Below are positions 11,333-54,600 of a DNA stretch of 64,000 nucleotides, in pieces (position 1 is the first letter of the stretch; every line of letters begins with the position of its first letter). Source of the DNA: Gonapodya sp. JEL0774 (lineage: Eukaryota). A program made the translations under genes and the position numbers. A model generated the notes under the pieces. The model saw only the letters and a program-made list of their open reading frames with translations, was not told the DNA's origin and did not search any database. Where the stretch lies: contig JADIIX010000097.1 of the NCBI GenBank assembly GCA_027604505.1, forward strand, positions 1 to 64,000, in the 5' to 3' direction.

Positions 11333-12695
11333 TCACACCAACACCTCCATCTTCGCCCCCACACCCAGCCCCCGCTGCACGCTGCTGTCTGTTACTTCGA
11401 GTCTGTTCAGCACTTCCCGCAGCGAGCCGCTCTCTCCTGTTGTGCCAAACACTCCGCCTTGCATCTTTGTCTGGCTTATCGCGCCAGCCCAATGGTCAGG
11501 GTATGCCGCGGCTGTGCAGTCGGTGACCATGATGCATTCGTAGCCGCGGTCGTTGGCGGCGCGCATCGTGGAGTGAACTGGCAGTGGATTTGGGATGATA
11601 TGAGATGCAGTGATGAAGACGTAAGAGAAGTAAGAATACGCACCACAGACGTCCGTTGTGACGCCAGTCAAAATGAGGTTCTTGATACCTGGTATCGTGG
11701 AATTTTCAGTTCATTTTAGGTCAGGGTTAGCTCTGTCCACTCGCGTCATGCCTGGTCCGCTCAGGGGAAACGCACCTCGCAGCTGCAGCGTCATGTCAAG
11801 ATCCGTAGCGTAGAAGCTGTTCTTGCCGGGTTTGTCGATCACAATTTCACCCTTTAGGGGTGCGAGTTCGGGAATGATCTCCCAGCCGGGTTCGCCGCGA
11901 ACAAGGAGGCGACCTGAGCAGTGAGTGGAAGAAAGGCAAAACGTCAAACACAGAAGGATGTAATTGTGTTCCAAAAGAGTGTGATTTTGGAGGGCTCGAG
12001 TCACTTTGGATATTTGAGAGGATGACATACCCAGCGGTCCCTTGTCTCCGATACCAATTCCTCCAGCACAGACAGCTCTCGTTCGGACACGTTTGCTCTC
12101 AGGCATGTCGGACAAATCTGGTCGATGACCTGTCGATCGCAGTTGTTGAGGTGTATTTCCGGTAGCGACAAGAGGGAGGTTGTCAACAGAGCGACGCCAG
12201 AATCATAACGGGTTCATGCTTGCCTTCGCGTGTGTGTATAATGGTCAGGCCAGATTTCCGACAAGTTTCGAGGAGAGACTGGATGTTGGGGATGATTGCT
12301 CGACATGCATCGAGTGATATGCCCTGAGAGTCAAGGTAGCCACCCTTTTCGCAGAAATCGCGTTGCATCTTTCATTGAAGTTGGCGAGCATGTAATATTT
12401 CAGTACGCGGCGCAGAGCGAACAAGACGATTTGACCCAAATTCGTCGAGATCAACTCACATCAATAATAATGAGCGCAGTGTTACTATATAAAAACGATG
12501 AAGCCATGAAAACATATGTTAATTACAACTCTTGAGTTTTCCGCAGGCGTATGAATCGCTCGAAAAGTCTTCCCATGCAGCCTCCAACCCCAATCATTCC
12601 ATTCCCCATCCCCACCTAGCTGTCAGATCTCCATCCCATGGCCAAGCATATGGTACTGAGTCCGATACCGTGAGAAATTGCGGGTGTCCGTTCAT
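11333..12695 (-). CDS. Isochorismatase-family cysteine hydrolase, divergent biuret/guanylurea-hydrolase-like paralogue, multi-exon (alternative in-frame ATG at 12749)
   Basis: [98 protein letters not shown]. Asp-Lys-Cys triad intact. Confidence 0.88.
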
Positions 12696-12836
12696 TCTGG
12701 CGCGTGTCGATCGCAACGGGGAAATTCTTATCAGGAACCTCTGAGGCATCTTGGGCCACAAACTTTCAGCAAACCTTTCCCTCTGCTGGCTGCCATAGAA
12801 CGTCAACGTTCTGAAACGCTCCAGAATACGTGATCG

Positions 12837-14263
12837 ATGACACTCTTTGTTCAAGCAGATCCATCGCCATGGCCATATGACGGCAATCTGACGCCAAGCA
12901 ACACCGCAATCATCGTCATCGATGTATGTGGGACATTCTCGCAGACAAAAGTCCTCAGTCCAAATTCTTCATTAATCAATCTTTTGGAACTTTCAGATGC
13001 AAAGGGATTTCTGCTCACCCGGTGGCTACGTGGATGTTATGGGTTGTGGGTTCATAAATCGCATTTCGCGAAACAGGACTTCTGCTGATCCCATTGCTCT
13101 CCTACAAACCACTGTTCAGACTCTCTTGTGAGCTCATAGATATCATCCATTTTGTTGTGTGAAGCTCTCCATGTTTTATTGATTTGCTACCATCGTGACT
13201 CTGGTAGGACGCCGCCCGAAAGTGCATCCAACCCATCGCCAACGTTCTCGAAATCAGCCGCCGAAAGGGGTTCCACGTTGTTCACACACGTGAAGGTGCT
13301 AAGAAATTGTTGTTTCGTCTCCGTGCTGGGCGACCCCCAACAACCCAAGTGACGAAATCGCACGACATTTGCAAAAGGCCACGATCCAGACCTCCATGAC
13401 CTCCCAGCGAATAAGCGGTGGCGTAGCAGACAAATCGGCAACGGAATTGGAATCGGTGATAAAGGCCCACTTGGTGAGAAATCAGATCCTTCATGTCTTT
13501 ATGTGGAACCATCGGAGCCTTCCATGGCGGATGTGAATGATGCTGTGTATATGTGTATACACACAGTGTTGTTGCCTATCATCATCACCCCCATCCACTC
13601 CAGTATGCTGATGCCGTTCCAAACTCTTCCCAACATCAGGCCGAATCCTCGTCCGCGGAGAGCCAGGGTGGGAGATAATCCCCGAACTCGCTCCTATTCC
13701 CAACGAGGTCATCATTGACAAACCAGGGAAGGGATCTTTCGTGAGTGCAATCGCGGCCAACGTACCATCCGTGTGTTCTCCACTTCCTCCTTTTGTCGCC
13801 GCTTTCTCAACAAATTGCTAGTACGGGACGGATCTAGAACTTATCTTAAAGCTCAAAGGTATGTAACTGTCAGTCCGGCGAGATACTTCGCGCAAATAAT
13901 TCTTCAGCTGTCTCCCACCCAACCCCCCACCACCCTCCCTCCTCCCAGGTATCCGCAACCTGATCATCCTGGGCGTCACAACGGACGTCTGCGTGCAAAC
14001 TACTTGTCGAGATGCGAACGACATGGGTTTTGAATGCGCGCTATTTCGCGATTGCAAGTTGAATGGTTCCCATTTTCTCGCGGTGACCCCTCAGTGAAGC
14101 ATTTCCACACCAACGGACACACACAGGCACCGCAGCGACCGACTTTAATAACTATCTCGTTGCTTTGAAAACTGTTTCTCAGCAGGGTGGACTATTTGGA
14201 TCTGTTTCGGACTCAACGTCCTTTATTGAGGCCGTCTGGGGACTTCCCGATATTTCATCATGA
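12837..14263 (+). CDS. Biuret hydrolase-like (BiuH) cysteine hydrolase, 9 exons
   Basis: [115 protein letters not shown]. Closely resembles bacterial BiuH as I recall it. Confidence 0.88.
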
Positions 14264-14346
14264 TCAGAAAGTCGTATGTGAATGTTAATATTAGCGAAAC
14301 AACAGGAGAGCATGCCCAAAGCAAACGGAGGATACAAATTTGAGAT

Positions 14347-14395
14347 CGATAACGTGTATCCCGTTATCGGGGGTGCTGATCAGTGGAGCGATAAG
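14347..14395. promoter_or_regulatory. Clustered GATA elements upstream of the permease (candidate nitrogen-catabolite-repression sites)
   Basis: CGATAACG (14347-14354) and CGTTATCG (14362-14369) form a perfect inverted pair; GATAAG at 14390-14395. Confidence 0.45.
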
Positions 14396-14733
14396 AAGAA
14401 ACGCCGACGGGAAGAACCCCTTTAGGAGAACCCCTGTTGCCCCTCCACATTTATTAAACCCGATCGCTTCCTTCCGGATTGATTAGCGAAGTCATTCCGG
14501 TTTCCACTTCCACTCTATACAGCCCAGGATTGAGACGTGCCCGAACCTGCAATTATGTCGGTGAGTTGCTTTCTTACGGTCCTCTGCCTTGTGCCTGCGC
14601 CTTGGCCATTCGTACCTTCCGCGTGATCGGTCACGCCGCGGATCCATTAAGACGCGAATGCGGCGTTTCGAACTCAAACAATGGATGCTGAGCGTAGAGG
14701 AAATGCAGGATCCCATGAAATCGAGCGAGAAGG

Positions 14734-17700
14734 ATGGTTCGCCCTATTGTCCCTGTCACCCACCTGCTCACACCAACTTACATCCCTCCCATTAATCGAA
14801 ACACCCGCTCACAGTTCCTTCAAACGGTTAATAAACGCGTCGCCGAATCACCGATCGGAACGTGGTTCTGTCTAGAGGGCTCCAAGGCCAAGCTTCCCGT
14901 CAGTTGCTTCTGGTAACCCCTTTTGTCGGCCGTATCTCATCCTAGTGAAACCCACAAATAGCGCGCAGGAACTACATTTTTCGGGGAGATTCGCGCGGGG
15001 CTTGCAACCTACATCACTATGGCGTACATCATCTCTGGTGCGCTCATCGAATAGCCCTTGGTTTTGATGTGGCGTTTAAATACTTTTCCGATTGCCTTCT
15101 CCCATCAGTAAATGCAAATGTCCTGTCTTTATCTGGAGGACCCTGTGTCTGCACTGCTGGACCATCTGATCCCATTTGTAAGTTGTTTGTAAGTCACCGC
15201 GTTAGTTCTTTGATCCAACCTGGTTTGGGCCTTCCTATTAGGTGCTGTGGACCCTGCCTACAATGCTTGTGTTTCCGGTGAGTTAAACTCTCGACGGTAG
15301 TGCTTATTGCACTTGTTTTAGCTCACTCACGTTGCCCATTTGTTTCATAGCTGTCCGCCGTGACATGGTGACAGCAACGGCGTAAGTTGCTGCTCTCCTT
15401 GCCAGAATGTCATGTGATCTTCGCTCACTTCCCACTGTGAAACCAGTGCCATTAACGCCCTGTCCACCGTATTAATGGGAATCGGTGCCAACTTGCCGTT
15501 CGCGCTGGCACCAGGTCTCGGAGCGTCTGCTTACTTCACTTTTACTGTCGTTGGATTCCATGGCTCTGGCTCCACCAAAGTATGTCGGCGCCGCCCAGAG
15601 TTGGAGTTTGATTGAAACTAACTCAAGAATAAACCCTTGATTTCATTGATTCTAGTATGGGGACGCTCTCGGCGCCATTTGCCTCGAGGGTATCATTTTT
15701 GCCATTCTCTCAATCTTGGGTGTCCGTCAATGGCTCGCGCGGTGAGTTGCGGATCCTGCAATCCCGAGCCAAGACTCACAGTGCGATCTCCCCGAACAGT
15801 CACATCCCAGACACCATCAAAACAGCAACTACTGGTGGAATTGGATTCTGTAAGTGCAATAATGCTGATTCTCCTACCGGCGTGCTGAACGAATTATATC
15901 ACCCATTTAAGTCTTAACATTCATCGGTCTGCAAAAGTCCGCCGGTGTTGCGATGATCGTTGCTGGTGAGTGATCCACGCTCCTTCTTATGGACTCGCTC
16001 TTAGTCATTCGCTCTAAATAGACAGTGCAACTTTGGTGGCCCTTGGAGGGTGTCCTTTGGGCGACATCGATTCGGCTGGTGAGCAACTCCTGTTGTGACC
16101 ACCTTTGTTGATCAACTTTAACGTGCATTTATGCGCTTTAAAAAGGCTTCTGTAATGGTAACCAGATGCGTAGTCCCACTCTATGGATTGGAATTCTCGG
16201 ATTTTTCATCATCATTTTGGTGAGAGAAAAATACCGACCTCAATTCGAGTATCCCTTGTAACCGAAAATGCGAATTTCAGGGAATGGCTTACAAGGTCAA
16301 GGGCTCCATTCTTATAGGCGTCCTCTTTGTGGGATTACTCTCTTGGATCCCTAACACACCTTTCACGTACTTCCCAAACACAACTGATGGTCAAGACCGC
16401 TTCTCGTATTTCAAAAAGGGCGTTGGTAAGTTCTACTTGTCGGTATTATTTCGCGTGATAGGCGATCGGACCTACCCAAATCCGTTTCTTCTCCCAGACT
16501 TCCACGTCATGGACACAGTGCCCGGCTCGATACGTTTCAACCTTGCGAGTGACAAAGTGTGGGGAGCATTGGTAGCTTTCCTCTTTGTCGTGAGTTGAGA
16601 GGCTGGTCGTCTTTTCGTATTGTATGTTGAACAGGTGGTTGACCCTTTTGTTGTTCACTTTCACAGGATATTCTCGACACCACAGGATGCCTGTTCTCCA
16701 TGGCGCGATATGCGGGCTTGATGAACTCACGGGGAAATTTCCCCGGCGACTGTAAGTTTTCTTTTCGCAAATCGTTTAAACAGAACTTTTCCTATCTAAA
16801 CATCTTTGCCTGACCTCTGGCCAAACAAACACTACTTACATACATCAGACGCCGCATTCATCATTGATGCAACATGCATTGCTATTGGCGCACCCCTCGG
16901 CACCTCTCCCGTGACGGTGTACATCGAATCTGGCGCTGGTCTGCAGGAAGGTGGACGGACTGGTCTGACGGCTGTCACGACCGGTATCATGTTCTTCCTC
17001 TCCTTGTTTTTCGCGCCGATTTTTGCTTCGCTACCACCGTGGGCTAGCGGACCTGCACTTGTTGCCGGTGAGACTGGAAACTTGGAACCATTATGTTCCC
17101 TTCGCCCGACTGAAACTTCCCTCACAACTTTCCCCAGTTGGCTCTATGATGATGCCCGAAGTAACTCATTGCAACTGGAAGTACATGTGAGTGATGCACA
17201 GGGTGGGGAGACAGGAATCATGATTGATCTAACTGGCATATTCGGATTCTCCTCTCTTGTGAACTCTAGCGGTATGGGTCTTCTCAGCGTGGAATTCTTG
17301 TTTATGGTTATCCAGTCCCTCATTCGATCGATTGTGTTATTATTTTTTCAGGCGATGCCGTTCCGTCCTTCCTCACCATTATGTAAGTTGCAGTTCTTGG
17401 AGGGGAGTCGGTTTTGACCAACAGAGCTAATCTTGCGTTCAAACTTAAAGTATTATGCCCCTCACATACAATATCGGTGAGTTTCATCCACTTGTCTCGA
17501 GAGGCGCTCGCCATCAAACTTGCTAATCTTCCGTCCTACTTTTTTGTAGCGGTGCGTGTGTTTGTTCTCTGTTGATCCTCCAAAACTGAAAATTGCTCAC
17601 TGCAATCTTCTTCTCGTAACTGTTTGTCCCAATGACTGCAGTACGGCATGTTCGTAGGACCATGGCTTGTTCAACTTCAGTTGTCATTGACTGACCTTGG

Positions 17701-18106
17701 TATCCTCCATTTCCCCGCAAATCTCACAGTGGCGCCGGCTTGTTCAGCTTCATCGCGATCAATGGCGCGATCTTTATCATTGAAAAGGCCAGCGGTGGCA
17801 GGATAACCACTGATCAGACAGACCGTCAACCGTGGCGCCAGGAGGGTGACGACAACTTCGTGAGTGATTCGATTGTTATTTCTCGATCTTGCTCGGTGTG
17901 TTCCAAGCATGATATCAACCATGCTTCTCAACTGATCTCACTCGTAGATTCTCCCCGACTGGGCTGTCCGTCGACTGTACGGAAAGAAGGACAAGGACGT
18001 CGACTCGCTTGACATCAAGCAAGTTCCTTCCGAGGCGGTGCCTTCGGAAATGGGTACCATCATTGTCGCGGACGAGCTGGCGGAGACTGCACCTGCAAAG
18101 GTGTGA
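14734..18106 (+). CDS. azgA: AzgA-type (NCS2 family) purine/nucleobase permease, about 20 or more exons including micro-exons
   Basis: [112 protein letters not shown]. The start is inferred as an ATG-only first exon at 14734. Confidence 0.9.
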
Positions 18107-18374
18107 CCTGGCCAAGTGCGGGAGAGGGGTTGATGTTTGGGAACAGCTGCTAATATAATCATCGTCATTGTATGGGGCGGTTCAACGGGACTTGGTTATG
18201 ATCAAATCTAATGGGTCAGAAGGTCTAGCGTGGTTTGTAATGAAGCCAGACGATACATACGACTATATAACATTAGCGACGAAACTCGTCGAACGAATGA
18301 ATTTTGGACGGCGTTTGTTCTGGTCTGGGTATCGGTGAACAGTTCAGATTTGTCGAAACATTGACACCAGGCAT

Positions 18375-18906
18375 CTACATAAGAAAGTCCACACATGTCT
18401 CGTATCGAGACCAAGCATCTTTGGCAGATTGGACTGCCTCCGGTGATGGATGTTGCAACGAGCAATCAGGGCTATCGGCAAAGAAATGGACAGGCCGCTC
18501 GTAGATCGCGAGGATGATGCAGCCCTCCGGGGAAGAAAGCGAGTGGCCGCTACCAGGATAGTGCGTCTGCGGAATTCATAAGATACTGCCAGATCGGAAT
18601 CGTCCCCCGACAACTCCGTTTCCTCACCCTCATCTGGCCCTTCTTCACCACTCCAAACTCGTCTTCCTGCGATCCATCCAAGACGATGATATTCTCGAAA
18701 CCTCGATGCACGTGAAAAGGCACTTTCGCTCCTGGACTGTACTTTAGAATCCGGGCTGACGGTCCATCAGTGACGTTGTAGAGCGGGTACTGAACTACGC
18801 CAGGGCGGAACGGCTGGAACGGGAGTGCGGCGAGATCGGAAGGAGAGAAAAGCGAGCAGGGCAGCAGGGAGTGTGCGCTGGACGGGAAAGATGTCGGTGA
18901 TGACAT
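18375..18906 (-). CDS. Small ChrR-like cupin protein, 2 exons
   Basis: LPFQPFRPGV...ARILKYSPGAKVPFHVHRGFENIIVLDGSQEDEFG, intron, then THYPGSGHSLSSPEGCIILAIYERPV. Shows the cupin HxH...E and later H metal ligands. Confidence 0.85.
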
Positions 18907-21564
18907 TCCGGGTGACACAGGAGTTTCACCGAGAGTTGATCGATATCTCGTCGGGGATGGACCCTCACAAAAGCATTGAACGATAATTTACATAACCCCC
19001 GCTTTATCACAACGAATGGAAGTGAAAATCCAATGTTAAATAGCGAACTTCCTGCACTTAGGATATGCTTCTGCGAGCTCTTCCCGTAGGACCTGGATGG
19101 GAGGTGTGTCGTGTTCTTCGAACCAGTATACGTTGGCACGCTTGTGTCAACAAGGAGATTGTGGGGTCATCTGTTCGCGCTAGATGTCATACGATCCTAG
19201 CATCTCTTACTGAGACGCCTCGATGTCAGATTTTGAACGGAATGCCGAGGTCGGGCATGGGGAACTTGTTCTGAGCACCTCAGAAGTGTTTCAATGAACG
19301 AGAATGGAAGGCTGTTCCACGGGGAAATCGGCAAAAAGATTGACGTGTTAAGCTAGTACCTCTACTGATAGTGTGAACTGGGTTGGAATGTGTCCCACTT
19401 TCCCAAATGAATACGAAACCCTCCAAAAGAAAGAATGGGCGGGAATGGTAATGACATGGCGCCAAGCTCACGATATTCCAGATGCAGCATCTCCGCCGAG
19501 CAAAGGAGCTCTTCACGTACAAACGAGGGCGGCCCCTGACTCTCGTCCGCCGCGTCTCAAAATCAAGCCCCACAAGGACCTAAAGAAAACCGATGTGGAT
19601 TCTCTCCGGACGTGTCCTTCAAGAGGGAGGACGAGGTCGTGTCAGTCGGCGCTTCATGTTTGCCCATGTACCTTAAATGGTTTGTCTGGCTGCCGCTGCC
19701 GCTCCGGAAAGGTGCAACTGTTCTGATTTACGTTGAAGAGGAGTACGCGGTCTTTGCCATGGGGTGAAGCAGACCTCCCTATTGGTACGCACAAAGCCAG
19801 TCCAGCTCAAGTTTAACAGTGTCAACGAGAACCGGTACCGGGCTCTTATCAAGAACTTCCCCATGCTCGCATGGAGCGCAAATCACGAGGAAGAGAAGAG
19901 AGGGTAGTGGTTCGAACCCACCCCTCCGAGCTACACTGCCGGAGGTACCTTACAATTCTGGACGAGGATCCCTACCATGGCTGAGATGGAGACATTTGTC
20001 AAGGAGTTTCATGCACAACCCAAGAAGGCGGCCGCTTTGGTGGGATGGTGACGGTATTCCCTCTCGAACACCCCCCGACGTTCTCAACATTCGCAACCGG
20101 CACTTTGAGGCGCTGTCCCACCGGTGCGTGTTGTTTTCGTTTCCATCCTTTGTTGCCTTCCTTGCACAGAACATCGCACGCACCCTCACGTCAAAATCAT
20201 TTGAAAGGGTCTTCGACTAGATGAAAGCTTGTCCGGTGCATTGGTTGAAATGCGATCGCGATACAAGCCCTGTGCAGACGAACCGCATGTATACTACATG
20301 GGGAGGGGTTCCCGGAATTCAAATTGAAAGAAAAACAAAGTTGTAGAAATAGGGGAATGTGCTTCGATATAAGGAAACACTAATGAGCTTGAATGTGACT
20401 TTCCAATTGTTTTCTTTCCCGGTTTCCTCCATTGATCTAGGTTACGCTCGTTCCTTTTCACAGTCGAAACATTTAACGCTCATATTGACGTTTATGACTG
20501 GCTGCGTGGTACCGTGCCGAGTTGTAGTGCAGCTGCTAAGTACCCTCCTCGCCGTTTGCGTGTAATGTGAACAGCTTTACTATGACAACATGAATTGTGT
20601 TCCACAATGTTTAATGAAATTACCAAACTTTACATTGCCGCTCGCAAGCAGAGTCCGGTGAAAGTATCTTGCTCTCTCTCTCGGTTAAGGCATCTATCTG
20701 CGTAGTAAGCGTAGGCACCTGCTCTCATAACATGACTGTAAAGTTGGTCCGGTCACGTGAATCATCCGTCTGCAAATTTCTTGTGTTTACAGTTGGACAA
20801 GCAATGAAGCAGGCCTTGCGAGGACTGTATGGATTTGCATGTTGAAATGTGTTTGCTTGGATCGGTTTACCGCGTGCGTCCATTCTCACCATTCTCACGG
20901 GGGTGCATACCATGTATCACCAACCTTGCAGTTTTGTTGTGATGATGACTGTTCCAATGAAACGGAAACCAAACACAATATTATATCGGGGAGTTGGACC
21001 AATCGGGTGAACACAGCACCCTTTGGGGCGGCTCCTCACCGACAGACGACAACAAAGCAGACCAGAAAAAAGGACAAAAAAAGGACGTGTTCCTGCGACA
21101 TTTTCGCCTGCGAAGTTTTTTTTGGCCAAGCGGGGAACAATCCAGGAGGGTTGTTATAGGGAACTAGAGAATGACATACGACGCTTGTGCTTCGCTTGTT
21201 CTGTCGTGGAATAAGATGAGCGGACTCAAAGAAGCTTTCCGTGTCCGCAACGGAAAAAAAGAGTGACAGCAGGAGGCTGCCGCCCTCCTCTCTCGGAACG
21301 GCGCATTGGCTTGTGTATAAAAGCAAGGTTTCTTTCATTTCCGTTTTCATTGTTTCATATACGTTCTCAAGGTAAGAGATGGAAGTTCCAAATCGTATTC
21401 GTGTCCGCCTTGTGTTCACTTTGGCTTCATCGTCCCTCTGCGGCTGTTGGTCCCACCTCATCCGTAAAAACTCCCTCTCAATCGTTCTCAAATCCTCCCA
21501 TCACACCAGCCGCGTTTCTTTTTCCTATCTTGCTCTATACTCTTCTCCCATCACACTCTCCGCA

Positions 21565-22508
21565 ATGGTCTCCAAGTCCCTCCTCTTCGCCATGGCCGCC
21601 CTCTTCTTTTCTGCCTCGACAACTGCCCACGTCAGCCTAAAACCCACGTCGGTTGCCAACGGGACCACTACCGACGTGAGTATTTTGTTTTTGAAGCGAG
21701 TTGTTGATTGCATACATAGCCCTCGAGATGATGACACAATCATGGATGGATCCGTCTCTCTGTTGTGATATTGCAGTTCGCCTTCAGAATCGGTCATGGC
21801 TGTGACGCACTCTACGACACAGAGGCGATGCTTATCACGATTCCACCTCAATTCACTTCTGTCAGGCCGAGGTTTAGTTTGAACCAGAACGTTACGGTAC
21901 GTGTTGCAAGACAATCCGCAGTACTCTTCCGAGAATCTCAACCCTGGTTTCCTTTTCATTCACCTATCTTTCAATCGAACCATCTATGATTGTTTCCGCA
22001 GGTCACCAAGACTGCGAACGGAACTACCGTCGCCGTTCAGTTCCTCAAGTCTGTTCCCAATGCCTTGTACGACTACGTTGAGATCGGTACGTGCCAAAGC
22101 GGGGACATTCTGCGCTTACTTTTTCAATCTGTAGGAGTTAGGTCTAACAACGACACTCCCTCCTCTTTGATCCTAGCCGCCAAGTCCCCAGCGACCGCTG
22201 GAGTCTTCTACTTCCCCGTCAACCAGACCTGCTTCAACAGCTCCTACACAAGCTGGACCCAGATCAACGCGACCGGCGATGCTGAAGTACCCAACTTTGG
22301 CCCCGCACCGTCAGTCACGGTGACTCTGCCCCAGACCAACCCTACTCTCCAGGTCGTGCCCTCTGCCAGCGCCAGCACCAGCGCCACTGCCACTTCAACC
22401 GCTTCCGCTGCTGGCTCCAAGGGAAACTCGGGAGCTCGCTCTAGTGCTGCGTCTGCCGCGGGAGGGATGGTTGCGATGGTGGCGGCGATTGCCGTTGCGG
22501 CTCTGTAG
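21565..22508 (+). CDS. YcnI/DUF1775-like secreted protein with Ser/Thr/Ala stalk and putative GPI signal, 4 exons
   Basis: Signal peptide ending STTA followed by mature N-terminal His-Val; RIGHGC; FYFPVNQTC...W; GPAPSVTV; hydrophobic C-terminus MVAMVAAIAVAAL. Confidence 0.75.
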
Positions 22509-51676: not shown

Positions 51677-54600
51677 CTAAGTTTCTGTCGTGGTGTGTGC
51701 TGTAAGCAGATTGGGAAGATGCGTGGGTGTGCTCCAGCCTTTCACCATGTCTTTCCTTCCGTTTAACCGCCGCCATGCAGTTTCAATAATTTTACCGACA
51801 AGATCGGCATACTTGAGTCCTTCAAAATTGGCCATGTACGCCAACTTTCCATCCCAACACCAACCAGGGTTAGGGTTGACCTCAAGAAGTTTAATCGTTC
51901 CACCCAAACCATCGTAGCCATCTCCCTTCCCGACGTCGCTGCGAAAATCAAATCGAGCATAGTCCACACAGCCAAATCTCTCCCAGAGTACAACGCAATG
52001 CCTGCGCAGATCTCTCTCCACTGTGGGGTGGAGTTGCGCTGGACGGTATTTGATTTCGCTCCAGTAGGGGGAATTTGGATCCCATTTGCTTTCGTAGCCC
52101 AGAATAGGCGGTAAGTTACGCTCCACAATCTTGGAGTAATCCACTTCTAGAGTCGGGAAGAAATGGAATCCAGTTTCGGCGTTACCAATCATCCCCACAC
52201 CATACTCAGTACCCTGAAGATATTCTTGGACAATCATATCACGTATTCCCCAGGCGCTAAGCTCCTTCATATACGCTTCAAGTTCCGATTTGTCCCTCAC
52301 GATGGATCTCGTTGTTATCCCCAAGGAGTTGTCCCCTTTCACAGGCTTCACAAACGAGGGGTATCCAACCCTGCGGATGACCAATTCGTGTAGCTCATCA
52401 AGGCTTGCTGCTGTTCTATTTGCCGACTCGGTTGTTGTCGTCTCATCCGGCGAGGAGTAATACACCTCTCGAGGGATGGGCACATTGAGAGTTTTGGCGG
52501 TTCTGTTTACAAGCCCCTTGTCATAGCAGAACGCAAGGCAATTCGGACCAGCTCCTGTGTACGGTATCTCAAGGACATCCATAATCGCGGGGATATGAAG
52601 TTCTTTGTTTGCATCATTGTCGAATCCCTCGTCACACAGGTTCAGCGCGAATTGAGGACGGTCAGTTTTGGCTGGGCTCGCCCACTCCCGCAATAGCCGA
52701 GAGTGGTCCGAGAAGACACTAAGATTTCCAGCCTTTTCTGAGAATCCAACGTGAGCGAGCGCGTCGAGCAACTTGCGCCTGGTCTCCATGTCCTCCGCGT
52801 TCCACGTGTTGTTGAGCTTGCCGAAACAGGGGCGACTTGGATCCCCAAGAACGACACTTAAATGAGGAATGTGTGAGACGAAGTCAAACTGTTGGTCATG
52901 AGTGGCTAGTGGCAATGACTCGGACAGAACGTGGACACCGTCCGGGAAGTTGTCAGAATGTTTGAAAATTGAGAGCGACGAAGCACCTCCATCCGTCCCA
53001 CTATGTAAACAAGAGCAATGCAATTGTCAGCAACCGAACACAGTAGTCGACTATTCTACAGAGTGGTTATCTCACCTGTTCGTTTCATCATCGGCCACTA
53101 TGGTTTCAACCGAGATGGCCTTACAAGCGATCACCGTATCTGGAGTTGATGAAAGTTCGTCTGTATGTACTTGGGGATGTGCAGCCATCTGAACCTGCTG
53201 GAATATCTGAACCAAGCACTTAGATCATTTTGGAAATGCGACTTTCGGTCAACTCTCTGTAGGTTCACCTCATGAGCGGCATCGCTGCCATATTCTTTGG
53301 CAAGCTTGAAGTTATTAGGGTCGTCATTGTCGTCTCCAGGTTCTTCATCAACAATACCTGTCTCCAGCGCCATCTTCTCCCTGTGTATACTAGGGAGCAT
53401 CATCCAGCCCCCTTTCTCGTCGCGCTCCGAGTCTACCCTAGGAAGATCTTCAGGACCTCCTGCCTTGTAAAATTTGACAAGGATGCGCCGTTCCATCATC
53501 CCCAGATCTTCTTGCCTCTTCGACAGCTCCTTTGCAACTGTGACAACACCGGCGTCACCACGTTCTACTATCCCTGAATCGGAGTCGCGGGCCGTCTTGG
53601 AACCACGCTCATCTTCACTGTCGCAAGAGGAGCCGTTGGGTTGAGCTGAGGCGAGGTGAGGTCCACTGCCGGTGGCGGAATCACTGGTTGGACTTGGGCT
53701 CGGGGCGGCACCGCGACTCTCTTCGTCCCGTACGATGAGAAACCCGGCACGCCGCACGAGCTCCTCTATCTCGTCTCTTGAGTAAAGTCTTTCCTGATAA
53801 AATTGATCCCGCACAACTCCCTTCCCAACGGCGGTGATGACCTCACGGGAAACGAGGCGCTTGCCGTCTGCCGATAGTTGGCGCTCACGACATACAAACG
53901 TCGCGTCGTCAACCCACTCCCAACTGCGTTCTGCAAAGCTACTCCTCATATGTTCACCATCTGTCAGGTCGAGGACACCGCGACCTCCCGGTGCCATAAC
54001 ACGATGAATTTCTGCGAGAACTCTCGCATCCTCCTCATCTTCGGCGTGATAACCAAATGAATTTCCCATGACCAAGACACAGTCGAACGCGGAGTTCGGA
54101 TAGGGAATACGACGTGAATCTCCCACCGTGAAACGGGCGTTGTGGGTGGAGACTGTGTGGGTAGCGCGTTCACGTGCTAAATTGATAAGATAGCTGGATT
54201 GGTCGTGACCATGAAGATGAAGGTGGGGATATTCTTGAGCCAGAAATAGCAGGTGGCGGCCTTGACCGCAACATAAGTCTAGGACGCGAGATGGGGCTTT
54301 TGAAGCTGGGGATGAAATGTTGGAGGATGTGAAATTAGAGGTATGGCACTCTTTTGGTAGACGATTAGAATTTCATCGCAGATGAAGTCGTTGTGGCTCA
54401 ATTTCGCTGAAAGATTTAGCCTGTGTCCTCCATGCTCCTAGACGCAACACTCTACCCCACAGACTTCACCTCGAGGTCAACGCAGGGGAACCAATCTCAG
54501 GCGCAAAAGCTTCGTCATTGTCAAGCTTTCGAGATTTGTTCGCCTCTGGACTTCATATTGCCAAACTGAGACCGCTCTCCATGTCAGTGTCAAGCCCGTA

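What the first reader, a model, noticed from the sequence alone, without database searches (positions are those of the whole stretch)
11333..18906. Candidate fungal gene cluster for urea-derivative/purine nitrogen scavenging: two biuret-hydrolase-like enzymes, an AzgA permease and a cupin
Seen: four adjacent genes in 7.6 kb. Two isochorismatase-family hydrolases lie head-to-head only about 90-140 bp apart, followed by an NCS2/AzgA transporter and a convergent small cupin. Known: bacterial BiuH, TrtA and GuuH are related isochorismatase-like hydrolases acting on biuret, triuret and guanylurea, and AzgA proteins import purines. Inference: this is an operon-like eukaryotic pathway that imports a purine or a ureide breakdown product, with the cupin doing an unknown ring-opening or decarboxylation step and the two hydrolases releasing ammonia in sequence. 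The hydrolases and cupin look bacterial in style and may be horizontally acquired. I know of no description of such a cluster in fungi.
Basis: partly seen in the sequence, partly recalled or inferred. Interest (0 to 1): 0.88.

Follow-up and report, generated by a model that had tools for sequence, protein, structure and literature searches.

The report
Fungal triuret-biuret cluster, remodelled hydrolase
An early-branching aquatic fungus keeps four neighbouring genes (two relatives of biuret hydrolase, a purine-type transporter and a small cupin whose bacterial relatives nearly always sit beside biuret genes) that likely import triuret and biuret and strip their nitrogen, with one hydrolase likely re-tuned to stand in for the bacterial triuret enzyme that the cluster lacks.

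Summary
Observation confirmed: four intact, intron-bearing genes of a monoblepharid fungus. Gene B is a biuret hydrolase (BiuH) by residues and tree. Gene A is neither TrtA nor canonical BiuH. It is a BiuH duplicate with the catalytic triad intact but the substrate gate rebuilt. The same rebuilt signature occurs in a chytrid of another phylum (A plus orthologue, support 100/98). The cupin is no bystander: 74 of 80 bacterial loci of its subfamily carry biuH or trtA within 8 kb. It tracks trtA in one family (50 both, 18 neither, 3 discordant at contig ends). It never shared a locus with the AtzH/HpxZ family that holds the known decarboxylase TrtB, so it likely replaces TrtB. The AzgA permease has Ser at the purine-binding Asn, and GATA sites are enriched upstream (6 seen, 1.3 expected). 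Best reading: import, triuret to carboxybiuret (A), to biuret (cupin), to allophanate (B). No activity, expression or linkage in a second fungus was shown. The bacterial pathway is published, and this scan met bacterial versions before; no fungal cluster was found in my searches. New variant of a known kind.

The parts
11333..12695 (-). Gene A: fungal BiuH paralogue with rebuilt substrate gate (258 aa). Exons 12695-12616, 12484-12460, 12368-12224, 12129-12031, 11913-11776, 11688-11644, 11577-11333. Triad D35/K144/C177 and Q217 kept.
   Evidence: Gene model; residues; the C-terminal 167 aa are database protein P0121; orthologue P0277
12696..12836 (.). 141-bp gap between the start codons of A and B (likely shared promoter), one GATA site at 12728-12733
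12837..14263 (+). Gene B: biuret hydrolase (BiuH) type, 235 aa. Exons 12837-12923, 12997-13045, 13120-13127, 13208-13295, 13378-13473, 13640-13740, 13822-13858, 13949-14053, 14127-14263. Triad D29/K137/C170, Q210.
   Evidence: Gene model; BiuH residue at 5 of 6 published discriminating sites; last exon matches solved BiuH and not TrtA at E<=1; profile score
14347..14394 (.). Three GATA sites within 48 bp upstream of the permease, the only such triplet in the 64-kb window
14555..18106 (+). AzgA-like (NCS2) permease, 567 aa, 24 exons with two 2-nt micro-exons (17270-17271, 17550-17551). Ser128 replaces the purine-binding Asn of motif 2; the acidic residues of TMS8 and TMS10 are kept.
   Evidence: exon matches to AZG1/AZG2 structures; motifs from PMC11527162
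18375..18906 (-). ChrR-type (Cupin_7) cupin, 156 aa, exons 18906-18628 and 18566-18375; His65, His67 and Glu71 invariant in a 45-sequence alignment; member of the biuH/trtA-operon cupin subfamily
18981..19009 (.). Two GATA sites 75-103 bp upstream of the cupin start

Best explanation
Four adjacent intact genes form what is likely a nitrogen-regulated fungal version of the bacterial triuret/biuret pathway: the altered AzgA permease would import triuret or biuret, hydrolase A would deaminate triuret to carboxybiuret, the cupin would decarboxylate that to biuret, and hydrolase B is predicted to deaminate biuret to allophanate. Allophanate would be finished elsewhere, since no AtzF homologue was found in the window. 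Shown: the gene structures, the residues, BiuH-clade membership of A and B, the A-type signature in a second fungal phylum, and the cupin's tie to bacterial biuH/trtA loci. Inferred, with my odds: cluster serves biuret/triuret-type ureide catabolism 0.85; B hydrolyses biuret 0.85; cupin is a carboxybiuret decarboxylase 0.5; A hydrolyses triuret 0.45; permease belongs to the pathway 0.65.
For: B has the BiuH residue at 5 of 6 published BiuH/TrtA discriminating sites (sites from PMC7948467). A keeps 64 of 68 positions shared by BiuH and TrtA but only 15 of 29 BiuH-specific ones. Its changes include BiuH Tyr53 to Ile, the residue PMC7948467 proposes hinders the substrate-binding Gln from moving outward, and Met51 to Gln, a tunnel gate in PMC5806882. 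A or its orthologue also carry TrtA-like I54, P56, aromatic 196 and T217 (B numbering). The chytrid protein P0277 shares 10 of 13 A-signature sites against 0-1 in 177 other BiuH-like proteins, and A plus P0277 group at 100/98 and 96/90, so the changes are conserved, not decay. A and B share 4 of A's 6 intron positions and group together in BiuH-only trees (99/95; 98/93 with P0277). Cupin: biuH/trtA in 74 of 80 loci and 37 of 40 full-flank loci. It holds the slot behind trtA that hpxZ holds in another operon (against 65). HpxZ was in 0 of 80 cupin loci and 2 of 37 of their genomes. In 80 biuH-anchored loci, 19 had HpxZ, 5 the cupin and 0 both. In one family of 71 genomes cupin and trtA co-occur 50/2/1/18, with no AtzH-like gene over cut-off. 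One genome with biuH-formamidase-atzF on a 4.6-Mb contig lacks both trtA and cupin. Permease: Ser where AZG1 and AZG2 have Asn, outside the published [NT] motif of 155 sequences. Six GATA sites in 732 bp upstream against 1.3 expected.
Against: A has none of the six TrtA residues and keeps Tyr at TrtA F35 and Asp at E160; those swaps cut TrtA's triuret activity to under 10% and to 50% (PMC7948467). A still scores nearer BiuH than TrtA (+62 bits; held-out BiuH +147 to +196, TrtA -72 to -166). B also loses BiuH-specific sites (20 of 29 kept), so part of A's departure is ordinary fungal divergence. The cupin is tied to biuH more strictly than to trtA: 9 of 37 full-flank loci lack trtA nearby. Three of those genomes and one plasmid show neither a TrtA-like gene nor AtzD (positive control 132), so they have no known source of carboxybiuret. 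Cupin/HpxZ exclusion is confounded by taxon, and operon genes are gained and lost together. With TrtA in the tree, fungal monophyly is neither shown nor rejected (p-AU 0.47), and A is drawn to the base. The rest of the genome could not be searched, so a true trtA elsewhere is not excluded. Linkage in a second fungus was not testable. AzgA occurs in 0 of 160 bacterial loci. The 13 signature sites and the 300-bp cupin promoter length were chosen after seeing the data; the region-own resample gave only 95 of 5000 for the GATA count.
Confidence: 0.42

Rival explanations
1. A has moved to a different ureide or purine-oxidation product (for example oxalurate, formylurea, carboxybiuret itself, a substituted biuret or guanylurea), and the cupin makes or opens that compound upstream.
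For: A's gate residues match neither BiuH nor TrtA at B-positions 44, 46, 195 and 200. The cupin's nearest solved folds include C-C cleaving dioxygenases and DMSP lyases (TM about 0.55). The permease is of a purine family. A second guanylurea hydrolase only 44.8% identical to GuuH is described (PMC9800807), so this family changes substrate readily.
Against: The cupin's bacterial partners are biuH and trtA, with AtzD in only 1 of 80 loci. It excludes the TrtB family. A keeps the Gln that binds the distal amide; GuuH having Glu there is recalled, not read.
Confidence: 0.25
2. The cluster handles biuret only: A is a second or generalist biuret hydrolase (like RhdBiuH) or a partner subunit of B, and the cupin acts after BiuH, turning allophanate into urea and CO2.
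For: All 37 full-flank cupin loci with a hydrolase have biuH, 9 without trtA nearby. Three genomes and a plasmid have cupin plus biuH without a TrtA-like gene or AtzD. No AtzF in the window. The active site is completed by the neighbouring subunit (PMC5806882), which allows a mixed dimer.
Against: The cupin co-occurs with atzF in 17 of 80 loci, so it does not replace it. A genome with biuH but no trtA also lacks the cupin. The A-type signature is conserved across two phyla, which fits a distinct job better than redundancy.
Confidence: 0.2
3. The two hydrolases and the cupin are a pathway, but the AzgA gene is an ordinary purine permease that lies between them by chance or only shares nitrogen regulation.
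For: It is a eukaryote-type AzgA close to plant AZG1 with the TMS8 and TMS10 acidic residues intact. The bacterial permease beside trtA shows no BLAST likeness to it. The genome is gene-dense.
Against: It sits inside the cluster, 291 and 268 bp from its neighbours. It departs from the published motifs 1 and 2, including the substrate-contacting Asn. Its promoter holds the window's only GATA triplet.
Confidence: 0.25
4. A descends from a true trtA that was partly overwritten by gene conversion from the adjacent biuH.
For: The TrtA-leaning signal is concentrated in residues 41-60 of A and P0277. A sits at the base of BiuH when TrtA is in the tree (support 57/15).
Against: A has BiuH states along its whole length and only 4 of 29 TrtA states at discriminating sites, two of them shared with B. 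It lacks the TrtA-type deletion near positions 96-97. Fourfold sites of A and B differ at 31 of 48, so no recent conversion.
Confidence: 0.08

Closest known systems
Bacterial triuret/biuret cluster trtA-trtB-biuH-atzF (Herbaspirillum sp. BH-1, Rhizobium leguminosarum/johnstonii 3841; PMC7948467)
   Same: Two paralogous isochorismatase-like hydrolases, a transporter and a small accessory gene kept together; the 3841 operon carries the same cupin directly behind trtA.
   Different: Eukaryotic, intron-rich and divergently arranged. No TrtA-clade gene, no AtzH/HpxZ-family gene, no atzF or atzD in the window. An AzgA permease stands in place of the BMP-type ABC importer.
BiuH, biuret hydrolase (PDB 6AZO/6AZQ/5BK6; NCBIfam NF050097)
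   Same: Triad, Phe41, Tyr47, Glu84, Lys145 and Gln215 equivalents in both A and B; both fall in the BiuH clade (100).
   Different: B has Leu for Val218 and a few other changes. A and P0277 replace Met51, Tyr53 and the Thr-Asp-x-x-Asn-His segment; P0277 scores 350.8, under the 370 cut-off.
TrtA, triuret hydrolase (PDB 6XIX/6XJE)
   Same: Proposed role of A; removal of the Tyr that BiuH has at TrtA N41; TrtA-like I54, P56, aromatic 196, T217.
   Different: 0 of 6 defining residues; different clade; A's role is inferred, not shown.
TrtB/AtzH/HpxZ (PF11533)
   Same: Same gene slot and, by inference, the same step as the cupin.
   Different: Unrelated fold family: the operon HpxZ genes are PF11533, the cupin is PF12973. 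That TrtB belongs with AtzH and HpxZ rests on a supplementary figure legend of PMC12625717; the TrtB paper was not held.
Green-algal BiuH-TrtA fusion proteins (P0001-P0014)
   Same: Eukaryotes keeping two hydrolase activities together.
   Different: They fuse a canonical BiuH domain to a canonical TrtA domain and branch apart from the fungal genes.
AzgA-like purine permeases (A. nidulans AzgA, PhZ, plant AZG1/AZG2)
   Same: Motifs 3 and 4 and the TMS8 Asp pair are kept.
   Different: Ser for the motif-2 Asn/Thr and Tyr for the motif-1 Phe/Trp.

Membership tests
BiuH (gene B) | Asp-Lys-Cys triad plus Phe41, Lys145, Gln215 equivalents | tested here: met
   D29, F34, K137, K140, C170, Q210
BiuH (gene B) | BiuH residue at the six BiuH/TrtA discriminating sites (Y, Y, S, D, T, V) | tested here: met
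   Y, Y, S, D, T, L: 5 of 6, the sixth a conservative change (sites)
BiuH (gene B) | Profile score in the range of known BiuH | tested here: inconclusive
   +124 bits BiuH minus TrtA: below held-out bacterial BiuH (+147 to +196), within the range of algal BiuH domains; whole-protein NCBIfam score not obtained
BiuH (gene B) | Hydrolyses biuret to allophanate | not testable with these tools
   needs an assay
BiuH (gene A) | Placement in the BiuH clade | tested here: met
   100; 100/99
BiuH (gene A) | BiuH gate residues Tyr53 and Thr (TrtA Y187 site); NF050097 cut-off | tested here: not met
   Ile and Ala, against Tyr in 183 of 187 and Thr in 185 of 187 BiuH-type rows; orthologue P0277 350.8 against cut-off 370, control P0031 415
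TrtA (gene A) | F35, N41, A134, E160, Y187, I205 | tested here: not met
   Y, I, S, D, A, V: 0 of 6
TrtA (gene A) | Specific triuret hydrolysis | not testable with these tools
   needs an assay; this is the 'works like' claim
GuuH (A or B) | Glu in place of the distal Gln (feature recalled, not read in a paper here) | tested here: not met
   Both keep Gln; no GuuH sequence was compared
TrtB/AtzH/HpxZ (cupin) | PF11533 AtzH-like domain | tested here: not met
   Cupin hits PF12973 only; HpxZ queries find nothing in the window
biuH/trtA-operon cupin subfamily | Nests among cupins linked to biuH/trtA, apart from ChrR and two-domain cupins | tested here: met
   Inside a 50-row clade (93/81, just under the starred level, 114 columns) that also took in one unlinked Streptomyces control; the other controls lie outside
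ChrR anti-sigma factor (cupin) | NCBIfam TIGR02451 cut-off, N-terminal anti-sigma domain | tested here: not met
   Exon 1 scores 32 against 124.5 and matches only the C-terminal half of the model
AzgA-like purine permease | Motifs 3 and 4, TMS8 Asp pair, TMS10 Glu | tested here: met
   Model read by eye against motifs; alignments
AzgA-like purine permease | Motif-2 [NT] (AzgA N131) and motif-1 [FW] | tested here: not met
   Ser128 and Tyr. That N131 is the motif-2 position is my alignment of the paper's statements
Conserved fungal gene cluster | Same linkage in other fungal genomes | not testable with these tools
   No fungal genomes are searchable; only the A orthologue P0277 was found, without its neighbours

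The most novel reading that the evidence does not exclude
Zoosporic fungi rebuilt the triuret pathway from different parts: they re-evolved a triuret hydrolase from a BiuH duplicate with a residue set unlike TrtA's, retuned a purine permease into a triuret/biuret importer, and use a widespread, uncharacterised cupin that is a second carboxybiuret decarboxylase, unrelated in fold to TrtB, across many bacteria.
Probability: 0.28. Interest if true: 0.85.

Novelty: new variant of a known kind. Interest (0 to 1): 0.66.

Why it matters
PMC7948467 could not interconvert BiuH and TrtA by single changes and left open how specificity switches; A and P0277 offer a natural candidate for an independent switch, testable with two purified proteins. 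The cupin is an unassigned gene in many bacterial biuret/triuret operons, including the model R. leguminosarum 3841 operon; the exclusion pattern gives it a concrete reaction to test. A paralogue conserved across two fungal phyla, with nitrogen-type promoter sites and its own permease in this genome, would imply an old natural supply of triuret or a related ureide in fresh water and soil, whose source is still unknown. It would also add a possible non-purine substrate to the AzgA family.

Tried and rejected
No whole genome is held, so trtA, atzF, urea amidolyase or a second azgA elsewhere could not be sought. No RNA holder was listed; this is not evidence either way. 'Cupin is TrtB': rejected, different family. 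'A is TrtA': rejected. 'Bacterial contaminant': rejected by introns, host-like GC3 of 0.54-0.61 against 0.55-0.62 in two neighbouring exons and housekeeping neighbours. 'The fungal permease is the bacterial permease found beside trtA': no BLAST likeness at E<10, and that permease has no Pfam or NCBIfam hit. An AlphaFold model of P0277 did not separate BiuH (TM 0.83-0.86) from TrtA (TM 0.81-0.83). The cupin model gave only generic cupin matches; the ESM Atlas gave only Cupin_7 clusters, and other Atlas and VIA-align requests did not complete. The mixture-model careful tree and its AU test did not finish; the supported trees use LG+G4, which is more prone to long-branch joins. A search with A's last exon scored only 10 candidates, and the wider ones scored only the top 8000, so further fungal orthologues, including of B, may be missed. 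Nineteen cupin hits besides the window's own, looked up for names, gave no named fungal protein. The supplements of the early-diverging-fungi HGT paper PMC11291939 held none of my five terms. No protein-complex job was sent.
Full report
Observation. The region holds four intact genes. Gene A (minus, 12695-11333, 7 exons, 258 aa) and gene B (plus, 12837-14263, 9 exons, 235 aa) are isochorismatase-like hydrolases set head to head, 141 bp apart and 56% identical (132 of 235). An AzgA-like permease follows (14555-18106, 24 exons, 567 aa), then a convergent cupin (18906-18375, 2 exons, 156 aa). All introns are GT-AG or GC-AG. The models are predictions from sequence. Database proteins identical to part of A (P0121) and to the whole cupin (P0122) are named by NCBI for Gonapodya sp. 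JEL0774, a monoblepharid fungus. That annotation cuts A to 167 aa and has only one locus tag between A and the cupin, so B or the permease is missed or merged there. Neighbours are fungal housekeeping genes.

Known background. PMC7948467 (parts 1-4 of 6 of the text, passages, and supplement legends without figures) describes TrtA (triuret to carboxybiuret), TrtB (carboxybiuret to biuret), BiuH (biuret to allophanate) and AtzF. It lists six residues that separate TrtA from BiuH and says the genes occur in 'some fungi and phytoplankton'. PMC5806882 (passages) names the BiuH pocket and tunnel residues.

The two hydrolases. Both keep the triad and the substrate-binding Phe, Tyr, Glu, Lys and Gln. 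At the six sites B reads Y,Y,S,D,T,L (BiuH consensus Y,Y,S,D,T,V) and A reads Y,I,S,D,A,V; neither has a TrtA residue. Both fall in the BiuH clade (100; 100/99). A keeps 64 of 68 positions shared by BiuH and TrtA but 15 of 29 BiuH-specific ones; B keeps 64 of 68 and 20 of 29. A replaces Met51 and Tyr53 (BiuH numbering) and the Thr-Asp-x-x-Asn-His segment, each held by 175-186 of 187 BiuH-type rows. With profiles trained on locus sequences, held-out BiuH score +147 to +196 bits (18), held-out TrtA -72 to -166 (15), B +124 and A +62.

A is a conserved fungal subfamily. The last protein search (top 8000 candidates scored, 120 listed) returned P0277, named for the chytrid Borealophlyctis nickersoniae, a different phylum in NCBI's taxonomy. 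It shares 10 of 13 A-signature sites, chosen after seeing the alignment, against 0-1 in 177 other BiuH-like proteins, many of them close kin. A and P0277 group at 100/98 and 96/90. P0277 falls under the NCBIfam BiuH cut-off (350.8 against 370). A and B share 4 of A's 6 intron positions and group together in BiuH-only LG+G4 trees (99/95; 98/93 with P0277). With TrtA present the grouping is neither shown nor rejected (p-AU 0.47), and a quick mixture-model tree pulled A to the base with a long-branch warning. I read this as an old duplication inside fungi followed by a change of specificity in A. Green algae keep both activities as BiuH-TrtA fusions with canonical residues (14 proteins).

The cupin. 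Its best plasmid matches are genes directly behind trtA or biuH. A profile of ten homologues, picked by likeness and not by context, found 131 related stretches in GTDB genomes, of which the best 80 were kept. Of these, 74 have biuH and/or trtA within 8 kb. Of the 40 with full flanks, 37 have biuH, 28 of them with trtA too. The fungal cupin nests among these (93/81, 114 columns; one unlinked Streptomyces control fell inside, the other controls outside). It groups with four unnamed proteins (94/97). It is not TrtB: a legend in the supplement of PMC12625717 aligns trtB with atzH and hpxZ (passages), and such operon genes are PF11533. In one operon hpxZ holds the very slot behind trtA that the cupin holds in others (against 35, 37). 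HpxZ was found in 0 of 80 cupin loci and 2 of 37 of their genomes. Among the best 80 of 587 biuH-anchored metagenome loci, all close to one query, 19 had HpxZ, 5 the cupin and none both (P=0.023 for the 38 loci of 9 kb or more, not independent). In one family of 71 genomes, 51 have trtA, 52 a strong cupin match (one weak match at 6e-19 dropped), 54 biuH and none PF11533 over cut-off. Cupin and trtA co-occur in 50, neither in 18, and the 3 discordant cases lie at contig ends. One genome keeps biuH, formamidase and atzF on a 4.6-Mb contig and lacks both trtA and cupin; a second biuH-only case ends at a contig break. Against this: of the 9 biuH-only full-flank loci, 6 genomes have a TrtA-like gene elsewhere, but 3, and one plasmid, show neither TrtA nor AtzD (control 132; incomplete genomes). 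The model is a plain cupin barrel (pLDDT 84.5) with invariant His-x-His-x3-Glu, nearest to dioxygenases, ChrR and DMSP lyase at TM about 0.55. Metal binding is predicted.

The permease. Exons match plant AZG1 and AZG2. PMC11527162 (passages) gives four motifs from 155 sequences and reports AzgA N131, D339 and E394 as substrate contacts. The window's protein keeps motifs 3 and 4 and the Asp pair, but has Ser128 where AZG1 and AZG2 have Asn, and Tyr for the motif-1 Phe/Trp. No AzgA homologue was found in the 160 bacterial loci; they use a BMP-type ABC importer or an unrelated 530-aa permease. The permease thus looks recruited from the host.

Regulation. HGATAR sites are at chance level over the window (116 against 113), but the three upstream gaps hold 6 in 732 bp (1.3 expected; 88 of 20000 random triples; 95 of 5000 resamples of the regions' own composition), and the permease promoter has the window's only triplet within 50 bp. 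That such sites mark nitrogen-regulated fungal genes is recalled knowledge, not tested for this lineage.

Mechanism. The cupin most likely does TrtB's step, which implies a source of carboxybiuret. The cluster has no TrtA or AtzD, but it has A, rebuilt at the gate that separates TrtA from BiuH. Hence: import, A (triuret to carboxybiuret plus ammonia), cupin (loss of CO2), B (biuret to allophanate plus ammonia), with allophanate finished elsewhere. Every arrow is inferred. The weakest are A's substrate (it keeps two residues whose swap harms TrtA) and the cupin's reaction. A trtA elsewhere in the genome cannot be excluded.

Origin. The hydrolases and cupin have bacterial nearest relatives, but introns, host-like GC3 and an orthologue in another phylum make any transfer old. 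No donor or direction was tested.

Novelty. Ten library searches listed no paper on a fungal cluster, on the A-type paralogue or on this cupin ('carboxybiuret' with 'cupin': 0 papers). The library lacks most subscription papers: Aukema 2020 was not held, Robinson 2018 and Tassoulas 2021 AEM were not seen, and Supplementary Figure 1 of PMC7948467, which labels trtB in gene maps, could not be viewed. Any of these may already mention the cupin or fungal pairs. PMC10805520, PMC12623156 and PMC9800807 were seen as passages; PMC11291939 only as a supplement term search. Earlier notes of this scan describe bacterial operons with the cupin unexplained and nothing on this genome or this cupin sequence. 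Verdict: a new variant of a known pathway, with three directly testable parts; interest 0.66.

Noticed in passing
window 51677-54372 (minus): Two long adjacent open frames with a D-Ala-D-Ala ligase C-terminal (ATP-grasp) domain and a class I methyltransferase; a bacterial-looking pair or fusion in a fungus.
   Followed up: no
window 17270-17271, 17550-17551, 17642-17649, 13120-13127: Predicted micro-exons of 2, 2, 8 and 8 nt that are needed to keep the permease and gene B in frame; GC-AG introns after 12224 (A) and 14053 (B).
   Followed up: partly
P0001-P0014: Two-domain proteins, nine of them named for green algae, with BiuH residues in the first domain and TrtA residues in the second.
   Followed up: partly
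L058:5628-7226, L054:5608-7209, L061:3950-5620 and others: A conserved ~530-aa membrane protein beside trtA in many cupin loci, with no Pfam or NCBIfam hit and no BLAST likeness to AzgA; in L033 a Tsx-like porin follows it.
   Followed up: partly
L056:3970-5429; W01:193208-194565: A further tandem pair of hydrolases 41-48% identical to TrtA; the L056 pair lacks the conserved Gln. A different subfamily.
   Followed up: no
P0123, P0132, P0135, P0145: Unnamed cupins, some two-domain, that group with the fungal cupin (94/97); possibly a eukaryotic branch.
   Followed up: partly
window 21990-22508 (plus): Weak DUF1775 (YcnI-like) match in a gene with a likely signal peptide and Ser/Thr-rich tail.
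   Followed up: no
L050: The record is titled Rhizobium sp., yet its family set includes genomes titled Tumidithrix; the title is probably wrong.
   Followed up: no
L086:3017-12640: The atzF-BMP-formamidase-biuH-trtA operon occurs on enterobacterial plasmids, here with neither cupin nor hpxZ.
   Followed up: no
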